Of a stretch of 43,692 nt of DNA, positions 1,370 through 6,639 are shown one piece after another. The position numbers and the translations under genes were made by a program. Position 1 is the stretch's first letter, and every line of letters starts with the position of its first letter. Source of the DNA: an uncultured Treponemataceae bacterium (GTDB lineage Bacteria > Spirochaetota > Spirochaetia > Treponematales > Treponemataceae). The DNA lies in NCBI GenBank assembly GCA_964369585.1, contig CAYJHL010000001.1, forward strand, positions 1 to 43,692, read 5' to 3'. The notes under the pieces are model-generated. The model made no database searches. It was not told the origin of the DNA and was given only the letters and a program-made list of their open reading frames with translations.

Positions 1370-2077
1370 ATGGAAAAAAGATATCTACTTGCAGGCAAAG
1401 AGTATCCTTTTTGCGAAGATTTCGCAAACTACGCTGTGAATTCAGGCAATTCAATTTTGGTAACTCTTTTAGATAATAAAGAAAAAACAGCTACTCCTAC
1501 ACCAAGTTTTGTATGGAATCGATCGTCACCCATTTCTTCGCGTTCACTTGTGTTGGAAGCAGAAACAACACTCGGGGGTTTAGATACCGCTTTTATTATG
1601 TTTGATACAGAGTTATATGTTGACGAATTTGAGAAATTAGGTATTGAAGTTATCTCTCGTGGCCTTGATACCCTCTTTGCTGGATACATGTATTTAACAT
1701 TAGAATTATTAGAAAGGTTTACAAAGAAAAACGAAGGAAATATTTGTTTTATTTTAAAGACGCACCCATCGTTACATGATGCTGTAAAGCAACAAAAAAG
1801 AACAGAAAGTATTCCTTCTGGACCTATTGTAGATGCCGCAGCCTCGGCCTTTCGATCTTTTGCAGAAAATATTGCTATAAAATATGCTGGAGCTCCAATA
1901 GGAATACAACTTGTTGAATGTCCAGGATCTGCAGATGATATGTCTACCTTATGCCCATGGCTTTTTTCATTTGTTGAAAGTGCAAGTACCAAGCCCGTGG
2001 TTGATGCAAAAGTAGCCGGGAAATGGACGCAAATTGGGGGAAAAGTATCCTCTAATTGGCAGTTGTTTAAACGCTAA
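1370..2077 (+). CDS. Rossmann/SDR-like protein lacking recognisable cofactor and catalytic motifs (hypothetical)
   Basis: 235-aa ORF directly behind a strong promoter. It has SDR-like block order: WNRSSPISSRSLVLEAETTLGGLDTAFIMF, then GNICFIL, then IQLVECPG. The N-terminal TGxxxGxG position reads AGKEYPFC and the YxxxK position reads VDAAASAF. Confidence 0.6.
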   Translation: MEKRYLLAGKEYPFCEDFANYAVNSGNSILVTLLDNKEKTATPTPSFVWNRSSPISSRSLVLEAETTLGGLDTAFIMFDTELYVDEFEKLGIEVISRGLDTLFAGYMYLTLELLERFTKKNEGNICFILKTHPSLHDAVKQQKRTESIPSGPIVDAAASAFRSFAENIAIKYAGAPIGIQLVECPGSADDMSTLCPWLFSFVESASTKPVVDAKVAGKWTQIGGKVSSNWQLFKR

Positions 2078-2804: not shown

Positions 2805-4583
2805 ATGGAACAAACAAATCCCCTTATAGTTCAAAGTGATAAAACTCTATTATTGGATGTGCATGCCCCTCTTGCAGAGGAATGCAGAGATGCACTTATC
2901 CCTTTTGCAGAGTTAAAAAGTTCACCAGAGCATTTGCATACATACAATCTTTCACCTCTTTCTTTGTGGAATGCTGCAAGTGCAGGTTTTACAGCAGACG
3001 ATGTTGCAGGAGTCTTAAAACGGTTCTCTCGGTTTGATATTCCACAAAATGTTCTTGCTTGGATAAAAGAAACCGCATCGAGATTTGGGAAGTTGCGTCT
3101 TGTGCCAGACGACATAGAAGAACCTTGTACGCAAGATGAAAAAGAAGATAAAAAAATACCAACACTACTCCTTGTATGTGATGAGTTACTAGTTTTTAAG
3201 GAAATTTTATCAAACAAAAAACTAGCAAAGTATTTGCTTCCGATAAATGACGAAAACGTACATACTGGTTCATTTGGATTTAGGCTGCAGTTAACAAATA
3301 GAGGGATTATAAAGCAAGAACTTATTTCTCTTCTCTGGCCTGTAAAAGATGAAGTTCCTCTAAGAGATGGAGATCCTTTAGAGGTAATATTACGAGAAAA
3401 AACATTAAAAAACAAACCTCTAGAAATTAGAGAGTACCAAAAACAATCTGTCAGATCTTTTTTAGGTGATGGCGGACCTGGAACAGGGTATGGAACTATT
3501 GTTTTACCTTGTGGTGCAGGTAAAACTGTTGTTGGTATCGCTTTAATGGCAAAGCTTAACATGAGCACACTAATAGTTACAACAAATATCTCTGCTGTGC
3601 ACCAATGGAAAGCAGAATTATTAGATAAAACAGAATTAACTGAAGATCAAATAGGTGAATACACTGGTGAAAAAAAACTTATAAAACCAGTTACCATAGC
3701 GACGTACCAAATACTTACCTGGAGACCTGAAAAAGAAGGACCTTTTCCACACTTCCATGTTTTTAATGAGCGTAATTGGGGACTTATAATATATGACGAA
3801 GTACACCTTTTGCCGGCTCCTGTATTTAGAATTGCTGCTGAAATACAAGCTATTAGGCGTATTGGCCTTACGGCAACCCTAGTAAGAGAAGATGGATTTG
3901 AAAAGCATGTTTTTAGTCTTGTCGGTCCAAAGCGTTACGATGTTCCTTGGAAAGAGTTGGAGCGCTCTGGTTGGATAGCACAGTCAGAATGTATTGAAAT
4001 GAGATTAGATATGGCTGAAGAAAAACAAATAGACTATGCTACTGCTTCGCTGCGAAAAAAACATAGAATTGCGTGTGAAAATCCTGCAAAAATACCTGTA
4101 GTTCTTTCGTTAATTGAGCGCTTTACGGATGACAAAATTCTTGTAATCGGACAATATCTCGACCAATTATGTGAATTAGCCGAATTACAAAAAGCTCCAA
4201 TAATTACGGGGAAAACGCCAAATGCACAGCGAGATATAATTTATGACTCTTTTAGAAAAGGTGAAATAAGAGTTCTTTTTGTATCAAAGGTGGCAAATTT
4301 TGCCATAGATTTACCTGATGCATCTATGGCTATACAAATTTCTGGCACTTTTGGAAGTAGACAAGAAGAGGCACAAAGACTTGGTAGAATTCTACGCCCA
4401 AAGAAAAAAGTTGCTCGCTTTATAACGCTAGTAACGAGAAATACAGAAGAAGATGTCTTTGGAGCGAATAGACAAAAATTCTTAGCAGAACAAGGATATT
4501 CTTATAGAATGGTAAATTCTATTGAGGAAATACCGGAGTATCTCGAAGATGGTCGTTGTGAAAGTGGTGGTAGTAATGAGTAA
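2805..4583 (+). CDS. XPB/Ssl2(ERCC3/Rad25)-type SF2 DNA helicase
   Basis: Motifs seen: REYQ (Q motif), LPCGAGKT (Walker A), YDEVH (motif II), LTATLVREDG (motif III plus the XPB RED triplet), QRLGRILR (motif VI). The N-terminal PLIVQSDKTLLLDV...FAELKSSPEHLHTYNLSPLSLWNA resembles the XPB damage-recognition/N-terminal domain. Confidence 0.9.
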   Translation: MEQTNPLIVQSDKTLLLDVHAPLAEECRDALIPFAELKSSPEHLHTYNLSPLSLWNAASAGFTADDVAGVLKRFSRFDIPQNVLAWIKETASRFGKLRLVPDDIEEPCTQDEKEDKKIPTLLLVCDELLVFKEILSNKKLAKYLLPINDENVHTGSFGFRLQLTNRGIIKQELISLLWPVKDEVPLRDGDPLEVILREKTLKNKPLEIREYQKQSVRSFLGDGGPGTGYGTIVLPCGAGKTVVGIALMAKLNMSTLIVTTNISAVHQWKAELLDKTELTEDQIGEYTGEKKLIKPVTIATYQILTWRPEKEGPFPHFHVFNERNWGLIIYDEVHLLPAPVFRIAAEIQAIRRIGLTATLVREDGFEKHVFSLVGPKRYDVPWKELERSGWIAQSECIEMRLDMAEEKQIDYATASLRKKHRIACENPAKIPVVLSLIERFTDDKILVIGQYLDQLCELAELQKAPIITGKTPNAQRDIIYDSFRKGEIRVLFVSKVANFAIDLPDASMAIQISGTFGSRQEEAQRLGRILRPKKKVARFITLVTRNTEEDVFGANRQKFLAEQGYSYRMVNSIEEIPEYLEDGRCESGGSNE

Positions 4584-6639
4584 TGAAACTTTAAAAAATC
4601 TTATCCCCTGGAAAGAATCCCTTTTTCGATTGTCAGAAAATAAGTTTTTAAATATTGTTAGGATGTATGTTGGAATAATAAAAACACCGTACAATAAAGA
4701 ACGCTTAGTAAATGATTTAGTATCGTTTTTATATAAAGAAGAACACAAGAAAACCATAATAGAATTACTATCAGAAAAAGATATTCTTTTTTTAAGTGCT
4801 GTTAAATTTCTTGAAAAACCAACAAATGAAACATTGTTAGCTTTTTTTGAAAATGAATATACTACCTTTTATTTATATGATTATATAGCAAATTTAGAAG
4901 AAAGATTGTTATTGTATCGTTATTTTGATGAAAGAACAAAAAAAGAATACCTATCAATAAACCCATTACTACAAGCACAGCTTGAAGAATACCTTTGTTT
5001 ATCTGTTTTAATACCTCTTTCTGAAAGAAAATTTGATTCTGTAAACATAGAAAAACATCCCACTTTAGGGGCATCATTATATTGTTCATGGTATGCGTTT
5101 ATTGCCCAGTATCCTGATGCTTGCAGGGCAGATGGATCGTTTAAGAAAAAAACACTTACAAATTTAGAAACTGTTTTTTATGGGGTTTCCCTTGATTTTT
5201 TAGCACACTTAAATACAGCTTTTGTACACCTTGGGCTTTTCTTTCACGACGGATCAAATCTGTGTATACATGAAAAAAAGTGGAAGGCTTTTAGTACCCT
5301 CACAGCAGAAGAGCAGCGTTTATATATCTGTGTAGCTTCATTTAGAAGGTTTTCGCGCGAAGTACTTGTAAAGCATACAAATTTTGTAAAAAATCTTATT
5401 GAAAAAATTCCATCTGAAGGTCTTTGTAAAACGACAATAGCGCGATTAGGTTTTATCCTAAAAAACACGCAAAAAGGGTTACAAACAGAAAAAAAAGCAG
5501 GATTTTTTGCAAATATGTTACAGCGTGCACAAAGTACGTCTTTAGAAGAAGAGGGTTTTTCTGATAAAGCTCTCCTTGATAAAATGGAATATTTTGGTTT
5601 ACTAACCTCTATTGGTCAAGATAAAAATGGAAATGATATTTTAGTTTCGTCCTATGAAGGTGAAGAAAAGGAAAGAGTATTAGAACCAAAAATACCATTT
5701 GTAAGCTTGAATGCTGGATACTCTGTAACATTCCTTGTTACGGTTTCTCTTGAAACTATGCTTCCCCTTGTTTCCTGTATGAACTTAGAAAGCTTTGATA
5801 CGGTTTGCCGTTTTGAAATAACAAGAGCCTCTTGTATGCGCAGCTTTGATAAAGGGGAGACAAACGAAAGTTTATTAAAAAATTTAGAAAAAGCTTCTGG
5901 AAATACGGTATCGCAAAATCTTACTTTTACAATTAATGAGTGGTTTGAAACCTATAATTCTGCAGCTTTATACCATGGTTTTGTGTTACAGGTTTCACAG
6001 GAAAAAATTATCCAAATAGAAAACAATGCTTTTTTAGCAAAAAGAATAAAGAAGGTTTTAGCTCCAGGCATATATATTTTTGATTTTGAAACAAGAGAAG
6101 AAATGATGGATGCGGTAGAAAAAAGTTCCCTTGATTTTATTGGCCTTCCAAAAAATAGCATAAAAGAAAGTGACGTTATGCCTTTTAATACATTAAAAAA
6201 TAGCTCATCGTTTTCTTTAAATTATGAAAATATCAAAAAAGATATTGAAATTGTACAAACAGAACATTCTGAAAATATGAAAAAAGAGCTCGAAAAGCTT
6301 AATTTACCCGTTGAGCAAAAAGAAGGTTTGCTTGAAAGGATAAATCGAAAACTTATTATCACTCCAAAACAACTCATTGGAGAAACTGTTCGAAGCGAAA
6401 AAACAGAAGCAAGTGGTATAGATTTTATGGGTAAAATTCAAGTTATCGAGCAAGCTATAGCCTCTTCAAATATGATAGAAATTGTAAGTGCTGCAGGGGT
6501 GTTTGTTGGAAGGCCTGTGAAAATTGATAAAAAAGATGCGGATGCAAGTATAACTTTAAGTCAAGAAGATCAAAAAACTATAACATTATTAATTGGGCAG
6601 GCGAGAAATGTAAAGCGTTTTAGACAACCTCTTTACTAA
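4576..6639 (+). CDS. XPB-associated protein (687 aa) with an internal XPB-N-terminal-like domain; function unknown
   Basis: ATG 4576 sits in an ATGAGTAA overlap with the XPB stop at 4581-4583. The ORF-track extension from 4522 lies inside XPB and is rejected. The protein has no TM segments. The segment encoded at about 5692-5995 aligns without gaps to the XPB N-terminal domain. Confidence 0.8.
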   Translation: MSNETLKNLIPWKESLFRLSENKFLNIVRMYVGIIKTPYNKERLVNDLVSFLYKEEHKKTIIELLSEKDILFLSAVKFLEKPTNETLLAFFENEYTTFYLYDYIANLEERLLLYRYFDERTKKEYLSINPLLQAQLEEYLCLSVLIPLSERKFDSVNIEKHPTLGASLYCSWYAFIAQYPDACRADGSFKKKTLTNLETVFYGVSLDFLAHLNTAFVHLGLFFHDGSNLCIHEKKWKAFSTLTAEEQRLYICVASFRRFSREVLVKHTNFVKNLIEKIPSEGLCKTTIARLGFILKNTQKGLQTEKKAGFFANMLQRAQSTSLEEEGFSDKALLDKMEYFGLLTSIGQDKNGNDILVSSYEGEEKERVLEPKIPFVSLNAGYSVTFLVTVSLETMLPLVSCMNLESFDTVCRFEITRASCMRSFDKGETNESLLKNLEKASGNTVSQNLTFTINEWFETYNSAALYHGFVLQVSQEKIIQIENNAFLAKRIKKVLAPGIYIFDFETREEMMDAVEKSSLDFIGLPKNSIKESDVMPFNTLKNSSSFSLNYENIKKDIEIVQTEHSENMKKELEKLNLPVEQKEGLLERINRKLIITPKQLIGETVRSEKTEASGIDFMGKIQVIEQAIASSNMIEIVSAAGVFVGRPVKIDKKDADASITLSQEDQKTITLLIGQARNVKRFRQPLY

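What the first reader, a model, noticed from the sequence alone, without database searches (positions are those of the whole stretch)
2805..6639. XPB/Ssl2-type helicase translationally coupled to a 687-aa partner carrying a second copy of the XPB N-terminal domain (candidate bacterial XPB-p52/Bax1-like module)
Seen in sequence:
- CDS 2805-4583 has the full XPB signature: LPCGAGKT, YDEVH, LTATLVREDG with the RED triplet, QRLGRILR, and an XPB-type N-terminal domain.
- The next gene starts at ATG 4576 inside ATGAGTAA, an 8-nt overlap with the XPB stop, which implies coupled translation and 1:1 stoichiometry.
- The partner segment encoded at about 5692-5995 aligns without gaps to the XPB N-terminal domain encoded at about 2820-3104. 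For example, XPB YNLSPLSLWNAASAGFTADDVAGVLKRFSRFDIPQNVLAWIKE aligns with partner FEITRASCMRSFDKGETNESLLKNLEKASGNTVSQNLTFTINE. They share S, G-x-T, L, S, QN and I-x-E at identical spacing.

Established knowledge:
- In TFIIH, the XPB N-terminal domain pairs with a structurally similar 'clutch' domain of p52/Tfb2, which stimulates XPB.
- In archaea, XPB pairs with the nuclease Bax1.

Inference: this partner may be the bacterial counterpart, heterodimerising with XPB through the paralogous domains. I recognise no nuclease or ATPase motif in it. As far as I know, the function of such bacterial XPB partners is not defined.
Basis: partly seen in the sequence, partly recalled or inferred. Interest (0 to 1): 0.7.

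Follow-up and report, generated by a model that had tools for sequence, protein, structure and literature searches.

The report
Bacterial XPB helicase with p52-like partner
A Treponema genome encodes an XPB DNA helicase whose gene overlaps that of a 687-residue protein resembling p52/Tfb2, the subunit that holds and switches on XPB in the eukaryotic factor TFIIH, and the same gene pair recurs across five bacterial phyla.

Summary

- **XPB:** CDS 2805-4583 is a bona fide XPB (NCBIfam repair_heli_XPB, 816 bits).
- **Partner:** the next CDS starts at ATG 4576 and overlaps the XPB stop by 8 nt. It encodes 687 aa.
- **Shared domain:** partner residues about 376-520 are homologous to the XPB N-terminal domain. 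Pfam Helicase_C_3 gives E 1.4e-7 here and matches 34 of 34 homologues.
- **Resemblance to p52:** a confident AlphaFold model (pLDDT 83) has TFIIH p52/Tfb2 as its 19 best PDB matches (E down to 9e-9, about 530 aligned columns). The N-terminal 367 residues alone still hit p52 first, but only at E 1e-3.
- **Differences from p52:** the C-terminus (helical hairpin plus Sm/WYL-like barrel) is not p52-like. No nuclease or Bax1 signature is present.
- **Co-conservation:** the pair is adjacent in 68 of 79 Treponema loci. A comparable partner lies within 7 kb of XPB in 12 of 12 loci from Cyanobacteria, Actinomycetota, Deinococcota and Bacillota.
- **Prior knowledge:** databases call the partner only "helicase-associated domain-containing" or TP_0021_N. 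I found no paper on it.

Best reading: a bacterial p52-like "clutch" subunit that binds and regulates XPB. Physical binding is untested.

The parts
2805..4583 (+). XPB/Ssl2-type SF2 DNA helicase/translocase, 592 aa
   Evidence: NCBIfam NF045503 at 815.7 bits. Pfam Helicase_C_3 + ResIII + ERCC3_RAD25_C. Best PDB sequence matches are yeast and human XPB (281 and 267 bits), against 140 bits for archaeal XPB.
2823..3236 (+). XPB N-terminal domain (aa 7-144), the counterpart of the eukaryotic XPB domain that binds p52
   Evidence: Pfam Helicase_C_3, E 2.5e-31. Residues 6-100 align to yeast Ssl2 131-226, E 1.8e-13.
3420..4535 (+). XPB helicase core (HD1 and HD2) with Walker A, DEVH, RED and motif VI
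   Evidence: Motifs read in the translation. ResIII at aa 206-360 and ERCC3_RAD25_C at aa 385-577.
4576..4583 (+). ATGAGTAA junction: the partner start codon overlaps the XPB stop codon by 8 nt
   Evidence: Sequence. Of 68 co-oriented Treponema loci, 34 show overlaps of 1-14 nt and about 20 more have gaps of 18 nt or less. Paenibacillus has a 14-nt overlap.
4576..6639 (+). Partner protein, 687 aa (TP_0021 family); p52/Tfb2-like
   Evidence: AlphaFold2 model with pLDDT 83 and pTM 0.74. Foldseek top 19 PDB hits are all p52/Tfb2, E 9e-9 to 2e-3, 343-561 aligned columns. Precomputed Pfam: TP_0021_N + Helicase_C_3.
4576..5655 (+). N-terminal helical and tandem winged-helix region (aa 1-360; Pfam TP_0021_N). 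Conserved basic loops at aa 31-42 (GIIKTPYNK) and 180-191 (DGSFKK)
   Evidence: Separate model with pLDDT 90.8. Its best PDB hits are again p52 (E 1e-3, probability 0.97, 362 columns), followed by multi-winged-helix proteins PaaX, BpuJI and MarR. Conservation.
5701..6135 (+). Clutch-like domain (aa 376-520), paralogous to the XPB N-terminal domain and the p52 MD2/clutch domain
   Evidence: Pfam Helicase_C_3 in 34 of 34 homologues. hhalign against the XPB N-terminal domain, P 1.6e-7, and against p52 clutch fragments, P 8e-5. Weak Pfam Tfb2 hits map to model positions 315-358. A1 profile against PDB: best real hit is human p52 257-371 (E 1.6, not significant).
6244..6621 (+). C-terminal extension absent from p52: helical hairpin (aa 557-610) plus one helix and a five-stranded barrel (aa 611-682, Sm/WYL-like), carrying the near-invariant motif EASG(M/I)DFxGK
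   Evidence: Secondary structure of the model. Only weak Foldseek hits: Hfq, LSm and Gemin6/7 at E 0.3-0.4, PafBC at E 0.07. Conservation. A comparable extension is present in the Paenibacillus and Deinococcus partners and absent from the cyanobacterial ones.

Best explanation
The two overlapping genes encode a two-subunit DNA translocase that is the bacterial counterpart of the XPB-p52 sub-module of TFIIH.

XPB (2805-4583) is the ATP-driven motor. The 687-aa partner (4576-6639) is a p52/Tfb2-like regulatory subunit.

Proposed mechanism (inferred):
- The partner's clutch-like domain (aa 376-520) pairs with the paralogous XPB N-terminal domain (aa 7-144) through their beta-sheets, as p52 MD2 does with the XPB N-terminal domain in TFIIH.
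- That pairing holds the two RecA lobes in an ATPase-competent arrangement and sets the ATPase rate.
- The N-terminal tandem winged-helix array and the C-terminal Sm/WYL-like barrel, which carry the most conserved and basic motifs, bind DNA or another ligand and direct the motor to its substrate. That substrate is probably damaged or partly single-stranded DNA.

Shown here: homology of the domains, whole-protein fold resemblance to p52, gene overlap, and co-conservation across phyla.

Inferred: physical binding, stimulation of the ATPase, the ligand of the C-terminal domain, and the cellular pathway.
For: - XPB identity. Its N-terminal domain aligns to the Ssl2 N-terminal domain at E 1.8e-13.
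- Partner mid-domain: Helicase_C_3 in 34 of 34 members. hhalign to the XPB N-terminal domain, P 1.6e-7. hhalign to p52 clutch fragments, P 8e-5. Those p52 fragments themselves carry precomputed PF13625 hits. The Paenibacillus partner hits the bacterial XPB NCBIfam model at positions 37-157, E 2e-9.
- Whole-protein fold: the top 19 PDB matches are all p52/Tfb2. The N-terminal 367 aa alone still rank p52 first.
- Linkage: 68 of 79 Treponema loci have XPB immediately upstream, half of them overlapping. In 12 of 12 XPB loci from four other phyla a partner lies within 7 kb, in varying gene order.
- Published mechanism of p52 MD2 with the XPB N-terminal domain: PMC7708078 and PMC6422496.
- Purified M. 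tuberculosis XPB alone is active only at high concentration, and its authors state that no bacterial partner had been identified (PMC3353954).
- Housekeeping context (MgtC, AroA, ComM-like) and no PADLOC hit for the partner.
Against: - No interaction was modelled or measured.
- Similarity of the N-terminal region to p52 rests on structure prediction only (E 1e-3, TM-scores about 0.2 because the domains are flexibly linked). Pfam Tfb2 is hit only weakly (best 5.6e-4, below threshold) and only over the clutch region.
- No Tfb2_C/p8-binding domain was detected, and the C-terminal third differs from p52.
- About 12% of Treponema loci have the partner without XPB nearby. In actinobacteria the genes can be kilobases apart or divergent, so obligate co-translation is not general.
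- The XPB-p52 profile comparison has only 61% hhalign probability.
Confidence: 0.6

Rival explanations
1. The partner is mainly an adaptor. Its clutch-like domain is only a handle for XPB, and its winged-helix and barrel domains dock the helicase onto another machine such as RNA polymerase, the replisome or UvrABC. It would not regulate the ATPase itself.
For: Three conserved non-clutch regions carry the strongest motifs. Weak structural resemblance to PafBC bound to RNA polymerase (E 0.07). In TFIIH, p52 also bridges XPB to the rest of the core (PMC6422496).
Against: No conserved third gene accompanies the pair across phyla. The resemblance to PafBC is not significant. In eukaryotes the clutch domain itself activates the ATPase (PMC7708078).
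Confidence: 0.15
2. The partner is a free-standing DNA-binding transcription regulator (tandem winged helix plus a ligand-sensing barrel). It controls xpb or a damage regulon and does not form a complex with XPB.
For: One homologue is named 'winged helix-turn-helix transcriptional regulator' by NCBI. MarR, PadR and PaaX-type repressors are among the Foldseek hits to the N-terminal model. Some genomes have the partner away from XPB.
Against: This does not explain a domain paralogous to the XPB N-terminal domain in every member. It also does not explain the stop-start overlaps or p52 outranking every regulator in the fold search. A 687-aa, five-domain protein is atypical for a repressor.
Confidence: 0.13
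3. The pair is an anti-phage or anti-plasmid defence module, consisting of a helicase and an accessory sensor.
For: XPB gives weak PADLOC hits to PbeA, BrxH and DpdF helicases. In cyanobacteria the pair sits on plasmids beside toxin-antitoxin genes and transposases.
Against: The PADLOC hits cover only generic SF2 helicase regions, and the partner has none. No nuclease or other effector domain is present. In Treponema the locus is syntenic with housekeeping genes across species. No viral structural relatives were found.
Confidence: 0.07
4. The partner is a Bax1-like nuclease working with XPB, as in archaea.
For: Only the analogy that archaeal XPB is paired with Bax1 (PMC7293015).
Against: No Bax1 or other nuclease family is hit in Pfam or NCBIfam at E <= 1. 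XPB-Bax1 crystal structures are in the PDB sequence set that XPB itself matched (6p66, 6p4f), yet no Bax1 chain appears among the 50 best-listed Foldseek matches. The domain binding XPB here is a copy of the XPB N-terminal domain, which archaeal XPB lacks.
Confidence: 0.02

Closest known systems
TFIIH subunit p52/Tfb2 (GTF2H4) paired with XPB/Ssl2
   Same: A helicase-less partner carries a domain paralogous to the XPB N-terminal domain (the clutch, or MD2), preceded by a winged-helix-rich N-terminal region. The whole-protein fold match ranks first in the PDB. The XPB here has the eukaryote-type N-terminal domain.
   Different: The system is bacterial and has two genes, with no p8, p34, p44, p62 or XPD context. 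No Tfb2_C/p8-binding domain was detected. There is an extra C-terminal helical hairpin plus an Sm/WYL-like barrel. Pfam Tfb2 is matched only below threshold and only over the clutch. The protein is 687 aa, against about 460 aa for p52.
Archaeal XPB-Bax1 helicase-nuclease complex
   Same: An XPB helicase encoded next to a dedicated partner protein.
   Different: Bax1 is a nuclease and binds XPB differently. The partner here has no nuclease signature and no Bax1 fold match. Archaeal XPB lacks the N-terminal domain duplicated here.
Bacterial 'helicase-associated domain-containing protein' / TP_0021 family (Pfam TP_0021_N + Helicase_C_3), e.g. the proteins next to XPB in Paenibacillus, Deinococcus and Actinomyces
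   Same: This is the family the window protein belongs to: the same mid-protein Helicase_C_3 domain and the same linkage to XPB.
   Different: The family is only named by automated annotation. No function, no link to p52 and no publication were found. Members from different phyla align with the Treponema family only over the clutch domain, and the cyanobacterial ones lack the C-terminal extension.
Characterised bacterial XPB (M. tuberculosis Rv0861c; Biswas 2009, Balasingham 2012)
   Same: An orthologous helicase with the N-terminal domain. A related actinobacterial XPB is 49% identical.
   Different: Those studies used XPB alone and stated that no partner was known (PMC3353954). Here the partner is identified.

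Membership tests
XPB/Ssl2/Rad25 helicase | Full-length match above the curated threshold, with Walker A, DEVH, RED motif and motif VI | tested here: met
   NF045503 at 815.7 bits (cut-off 610) and TIGR00603 at 344.7 bits (cut-off 328.7). Motifs read in the translation.
XPB/Ssl2/Rad25 helicase | Eukaryote-type N-terminal domain (Helicase_C_3) ahead of the helicase core | tested here: met
   PF13625 at aa 7-144, 108.7 bits. Aligns to Ssl2 131-226, E 1.8e-13.
Pfam Helicase_C_3 (XPB N-terminal / clutch fold) in the partner | Match to PF13625 | tested here: met
   The window protein scores 32.0 bits, just under the 34.2 cut-off. All 34 homologues match, up to 44 bits. Precomputed PF13625.12 is assigned to the window protein P0001. 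hhalign against the XPB N-terminal domain gives P 1.6e-7.
Pfam TP_0021_N (PF27388) | Match to the N-terminal family model | tested here: met
   A precomputed hit is listed for P0001 and for all 120 homologues shown. The model is absent from the local Pfam copy, so it was not re-scored here.
TFIIH p52/Tfb2 | Clutch (MD2) domain homologous to the XPB N-terminal domain | tested here: met
   hhalign of A1 against p52 fragments: partner 375-460, P 8e-5, probability 61%. Foldseek matches to p52 chains. Shared ITR-S...G-T motif.
TFIIH p52/Tfb2 | p52-type N-terminal region (NTD + MD1) | tested here: inconclusive
   For the N-terminal-only model, p52 gives the best PDB hits, but only at E 1e-3 to 8e-3 and TM about 0.2. 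There is no sequence-level match outside the clutch.
TFIIH p52/Tfb2 | Pfam Tfb2 (PF03849) above the gathering score | tested here: not met
   Only 5 of 34 members hit, best E 5.6e-4. The three hits scored individually reach about 14-16 bits against a 34.5-bit cut-off, and all fall at model positions 315-358.
TFIIH p52/Tfb2 | C-terminal p8/Tfb5-binding domain (Tfb2_C, PF18307) | tested here: not met
   No Tfb2_C hit in any of 34 members at E <= 10. The C-terminus is a helical hairpin plus a five-stranded barrel.
TFIIH p52/Tfb2 | Binds XPB and stimulates or limits its ATPase | not testable with these tools
   No multimer prediction or biochemistry is available here. Only genetic linkage was shown.
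Bax1 (archaeal XPB-associated nuclease) | Bax1 nuclease domain or fold | tested here: not met
   No nuclease family in Pfam or NCBIfam at E <= 1. No Bax1 chain among the 50 best-listed Foldseek PDB matches.
Known anti-phage defence systems (PADLOC) | Match of both components to a defence-system model | tested here: not met
   The partner has 0 hits. XPB gives only generic helicase-region hits to PbeA and BrxH.

The most novel reading that the evidence does not exclude
The XPB-p52 'motor plus clutch' pair is an ancient, self-sufficient two-subunit DNA translocase that is widespread in bacteria. The XPB-p52(-p8) arm of eukaryotic TFIIH would then descend from, or share a direct ancestor with, this bacterial module rather than the archaeal XPB-Bax1 system. 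In bacteria the p52-like subunit would couple the motor to a DNA-damage or single-stranded-DNA signal through its extra Sm/WYL-like C-terminal domain.
Probability: 0.3. Interest if true: 0.85.

Novelty: new variant of a known kind. Interest (0 to 1): 0.66.

Why it matters
- **An open question becomes testable.** Bacterial XPB has been an orphan enzyme for over fifteen years. It is weakly active alone in vitro and has no known partner or pathway (PMC3353954; a 2026 review still calls its function 'elusive', PMC13024598). A conserved p52-like partner gives a concrete experiment: reconstitute the two-protein complex and ask whether it restores robust ATPase and translocase activity.
- **A minimal model for TFIIH.** The pair would be a two-protein bacterial model for the XPB-p52 clutch mechanism, which in eukaryotes is affected by trichothiodystrophy and XP mutations.
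- **Origin of TFIIH.** Bacterial XPB shares both the N-terminal domain and a p52-like partner with eukaryotes, whereas archaeal XPB has neither and uses Bax1.
- **Possible core function.** The family name comes from T. pallidum TP_0021, which hints that even the syphilis spirochaete, with its reduced genome, keeps this gene. That retention was not checked here.

Tried and rejected
- **Bax1 or nuclease reading:** rejected, no nuclease family or fold.
- **Defence-system reading:** PADLOC gives nothing for the partner and only generic helicase hits for XPB. The BFVD fold search gives nothing at E <= 1e-3. The phage collection holds one unverified fecal scaffold with the pair.
- **Exhaustive profile search of 1.84 billion representatives:** 2471 hits at E <= 1e-3, but only the top 150 are listed and all are Treponema-like. 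It therefore did not reveal distant relatives.
- **Word-indexed search with the six-phylum alignment A3:** again returned mostly Treponema proteins.
- **tblastn of the partner against plasmids:** no match. Partners in other phyla were reached through XPB instead.
- **A1 profile against PDB sequences:** p52 was the best real hit but not significant, E 1.6.
- **Full-length eukaryotic p52 sequences:** only exon-sized fragments were available, so the p52 N-terminal region could not be compared by profile.
- **WYL assignment of the C-terminal barrel:** one Pfam WYL hit at E 0.2 among 34 members and none in the Paenibacillus or Deinococcus partners. It is kept only as a fold-level resemblance.
- **Deinococcus small ORF as a p8 homologue:** no sequence support. 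The equal-sized Actinomyces ORF is unrelated.
- **DNA-level features in the window:** repeats, Rfam, tRNA and promoter/terminator scans around the locus showed nothing beyond chance.
- **Literature:** ten searches found no paper on a bacterial XPB partner, Helicase_C_3, TP0021 or Rv0862c function.

Full report
**1. Observation**

The window region 2805-6639 holds two co-directional ORFs.

The first ORF (2805-4583, 592 aa) carries LPCGAGKT, YDEVH, LTATLVREDG and QRLGRILR.
- It scores 815.7 bits on NCBIfam repair_heli_XPB (cut-off 610).
- In Pfam it shows Helicase_C_3 (aa 7-144, E 2.5e-31), ResIII and ERCC3_RAD25_C.
- Against PDB sequences it is much closer to yeast and human XPB (281 and 267 bits) than to archaeal XPB (140 bits).
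- Its residues 6-100 align to Ssl2 131-226 (E 1.8e-13). This is the N-terminal domain that archaeal XPB lacks.
- No bacterial XPB or partner structure is in that PDB copy.

The sequence at 4576-4583 is ATGAGTAA, so the second ORF (ATG 4576-6639, 687 aa) overlaps the XPB stop by 8 nt. An upstream in-frame ATG at 4549 gives the 696-aa database form, and a TTG lies at 4522. The start Met of all aligned homologues coincides with ATG 4576.

**2. The repeated domain is real**

- Pfam Helicase_C_3 matches partner aa 401-480 (E 1.4e-7, 32.0 bits, just under the 34.2-bit threshold).
- All 34 aligned homologues match the model, up to 44 bits.
- A profile-profile comparison of the partner family with 67 Treponema XPB N-terminal domains (the window's and 66 from related loci) aligns partner 401-473 to XPB 34-107 without gaps. 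Probability is 94% and P is 1.6e-7.
- The Paenibacillus partner even hits the bacterial XPB NCBIfam model at positions 37-157 (E 2e-9).

**3. The whole protein resembles p52/Tfb2**

An AlphaFold2 model built on a 34-sequence alignment is confident (pLDDT 83, pTM 0.74). It shows these segments:
- a helical and tandem winged-helix N-terminal region (aa 1-360);
- the clutch-like alpha/beta domain (aa 376-520);
- a disordered linker;
- a helical hairpin (aa 557-610);
- one helix followed by a five-stranded barrel (aa 611-682).

Foldseek against the PDB returns TFIIH p52/Tfb2 chains as the 19 best matches. These come from human and yeast cryo-EM complexes and from the Chaetomium p52/p8 crystal structure 6TRS. 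E-values run from 9e-9 to 2e-3, with 343-561 aligned columns. XPB/Ssl2 chains follow, matched through their N-terminal domain only (about 160 columns, E about 3e-3). TM-scores are low (0.14-0.31), as expected for flexibly linked domains.

To exclude the possibility that the clutch domain alone drives this result, I modelled aa 1-367 separately (pLDDT 90.8). p52 chains are again the six best hits (E 1e-3 to 8e-3, probability 0.84-0.97, 331-365 columns). They rank ahead of multi-winged-helix proteins such as PaaX, BpuJI and MarR. This is suggestive, not conclusive.

At sequence level:
- The family profile's best genuine PDB hit is human p52 257-371 (E 1.6, not significant).
- Pfam Tfb2 is hit by 5 of 34 members (best E 5.6e-4), but only at model positions 315-358, the start of the clutch.
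- hhalign against an alignment of eukaryotic p52 fragments aligns partner 375-460 to the clutch (P 8e-5, probability 61%).
- Several of those p52 fragments carry precomputed PF13625 hits themselves.
- Tfb2_C, the p8-binding domain, is never hit.

**4. Co-conservation**

*Within Treponema.*
- A genome scan found 344 relatives of the partner. The 79 loci retrieved are all Treponema or Treponemataceae.
- XPB lies immediately upstream on the same strand in 68 of the 79. It is on the opposite strand downstream in one and absent from the flank in ten.
- Half of the co-oriented junctions overlap by 1-14 nt, and most of the rest are 18 nt or less apart.
- XPB is far more conserved (59-87% identity) than the partner (31-70%). 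Within the partner, the N-terminal 130 aa, the clutch and the C-terminal domain are the most conserved parts.

*Other phyla.* XPB hits in the plasmid and phage collections all have a 620-850-aa Helicase_C_3-bearing protein within 7 kb:
- Paenibacillus: XPB then partner, with a 14-nt overlap.
- Three Deinococcus species: XPB, a small ORF, then partner.
- Gloeocapsopsis and Acaryochloris: partner then XPB.
- Arthrobacter: partner then XPB.
- Actinomyces: divergent orientation.
- Tsukamurella, Nonomuraea and Nocardia: 3.5-4.7 kb apart.
- One fecal scaffold.

That makes 12 of 12 bacterial loci. A haloarchaeal plasmid XPB-like helicase has no such partner.

**5. Context and alternatives**

The window neighbours are housekeeping genes: an SDF transporter, MgtC, AroA, a ComM-like protein and a PHP-domain protein. 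This synteny is kept in the closest relatives. PADLOC finds nothing for the partner. No nuclease or Bax1 signature exists. No viral structural relatives were found.

**6. Mechanism**

In TFIIH, p52 MD2 packs its beta-sheet against the XPB N-terminal domain and contacts HD2. This both activates XPB's ATPase and caps its rate (PMC7708078; PMC6422496).

The bacterial XPB has the same N-terminal domain. Its partner has the same clutch domain within a p52-like scaffold. The most economical reading is therefore the same heterodimer and the same regulatory logic. This step is inferred, not shown.

The conserved basic loops of the winged-helix region and the invariant EASG(M/I)DFxGK motif of the C-terminal barrel probably provide nucleic-acid or ligand binding that targets the motor. 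The barrel's resemblance to Sm/WYL domains is weak (E 0.07-0.4).

**7. What is known**

Public annotation calls these proteins 'hypothetical', 'helicase-associated domain-containing' or 'Helicase XPB/Ssl2 N-terminal domain-containing'. Pfam names the N-terminal part TP_0021_N, after an uncharacterised T. pallidum protein.

Ten full-text searches found no description of a bacterial XPB partner. The M. tuberculosis XPB study says explicitly that none had been identified, and a 2026 review calls bacterial XPB function elusive. Closed-access literature could not be searched.

**8. Verdict**

The Bax1-like interpretation is not.

By the membership tests it is not a certified member of Pfam Tfb2: it falls below threshold, has no Tfb2_C and has a different C-terminus. 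Its fold and gene linkage nevertheless suggest that it works like p52.

It is a new variant of a known kind. It has clear experimental follow-ups and bears on the origin of the TFIIH XPB arm.

Noticed in passing
L082 6747-7046; L092 6741-7070; L095 8737-9084 (Deinococcus plasmids): A conserved 99-115-aa ORF lies between xpb and the partner in all three Deinococcus loci, overlapping the partner start by 4 nt. Two of the copies, aligned here, are 82% identical. By eye its core reads as a beta-alpha-beta-beta-alpha pattern, like p8/Tfb5, so it may be a third subunit.
   Followed up: partly
window 1370-2077 (+): This 235-aa ORF has no Pfam, NCBIfam or PDB sequence match. It is conserved just upstream of xpb in 38 of 79 Treponema loci, directly adjacent or separated only by the MgtC gene. 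It may be co-transcribed with the XPB-partner pair.
   Followed up: partly
L013, L015-L017, L026-L028, L051, L054, L088-L090; L023: In about 12% of Treponema loci the partner gene stands alone, with no xpb within 2-6 kb. In L023 xpb is downstream on the opposite strand. Whether xpb is elsewhere in those genomes or lost could not be checked.
   Followed up: partly
L080 3107-4981; L085 4111-5979 (cyanobacterial plasmids): The cyanobacterial partners precede xpb, end right after the clutch domain (no C-terminal barrel) and sit on plasmids among toxin-antitoxin, transposase and integrase genes. Acaryochloris has two plasmid copies. This suggests horizontal mobility of the pair.
   Followed up: partly
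L091 4620-6620 (Haloterrigena plasmid pHTUR04) and similar haloarchaeal plasmids: Haloarchaeal plasmids encode a 666-aa XPB-like 'DEAD/DEAH box helicase' that aligns from query residue 27 at about 31% identity. No Helicase_C_3 partner is nearby, and the neighbours include type II/IV secretion ATPase and ParA genes.
   Followed up: no
L096 1648-4434 and 7712-9226 (MT836665.1, 'Bacteriophage sp.' scaffold from human faeces): An unverified 9.2-kb 'phage' scaffold carries both a partner-like ORF and a truncated XPB (46% identity to the window XPB). It is more likely a bacterial fragment than a phage.
   Followed up: no
L081 1494-2705 (Tsukamurella): In Tsukamurella a sigma-70 family factor, a YciI-family protein, a DUF6069-family protein, a TetR regulator and a YqeB-like PH-domain protein lie between the partner and xpb. 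No link to transcription was examined.
   Followed up: no
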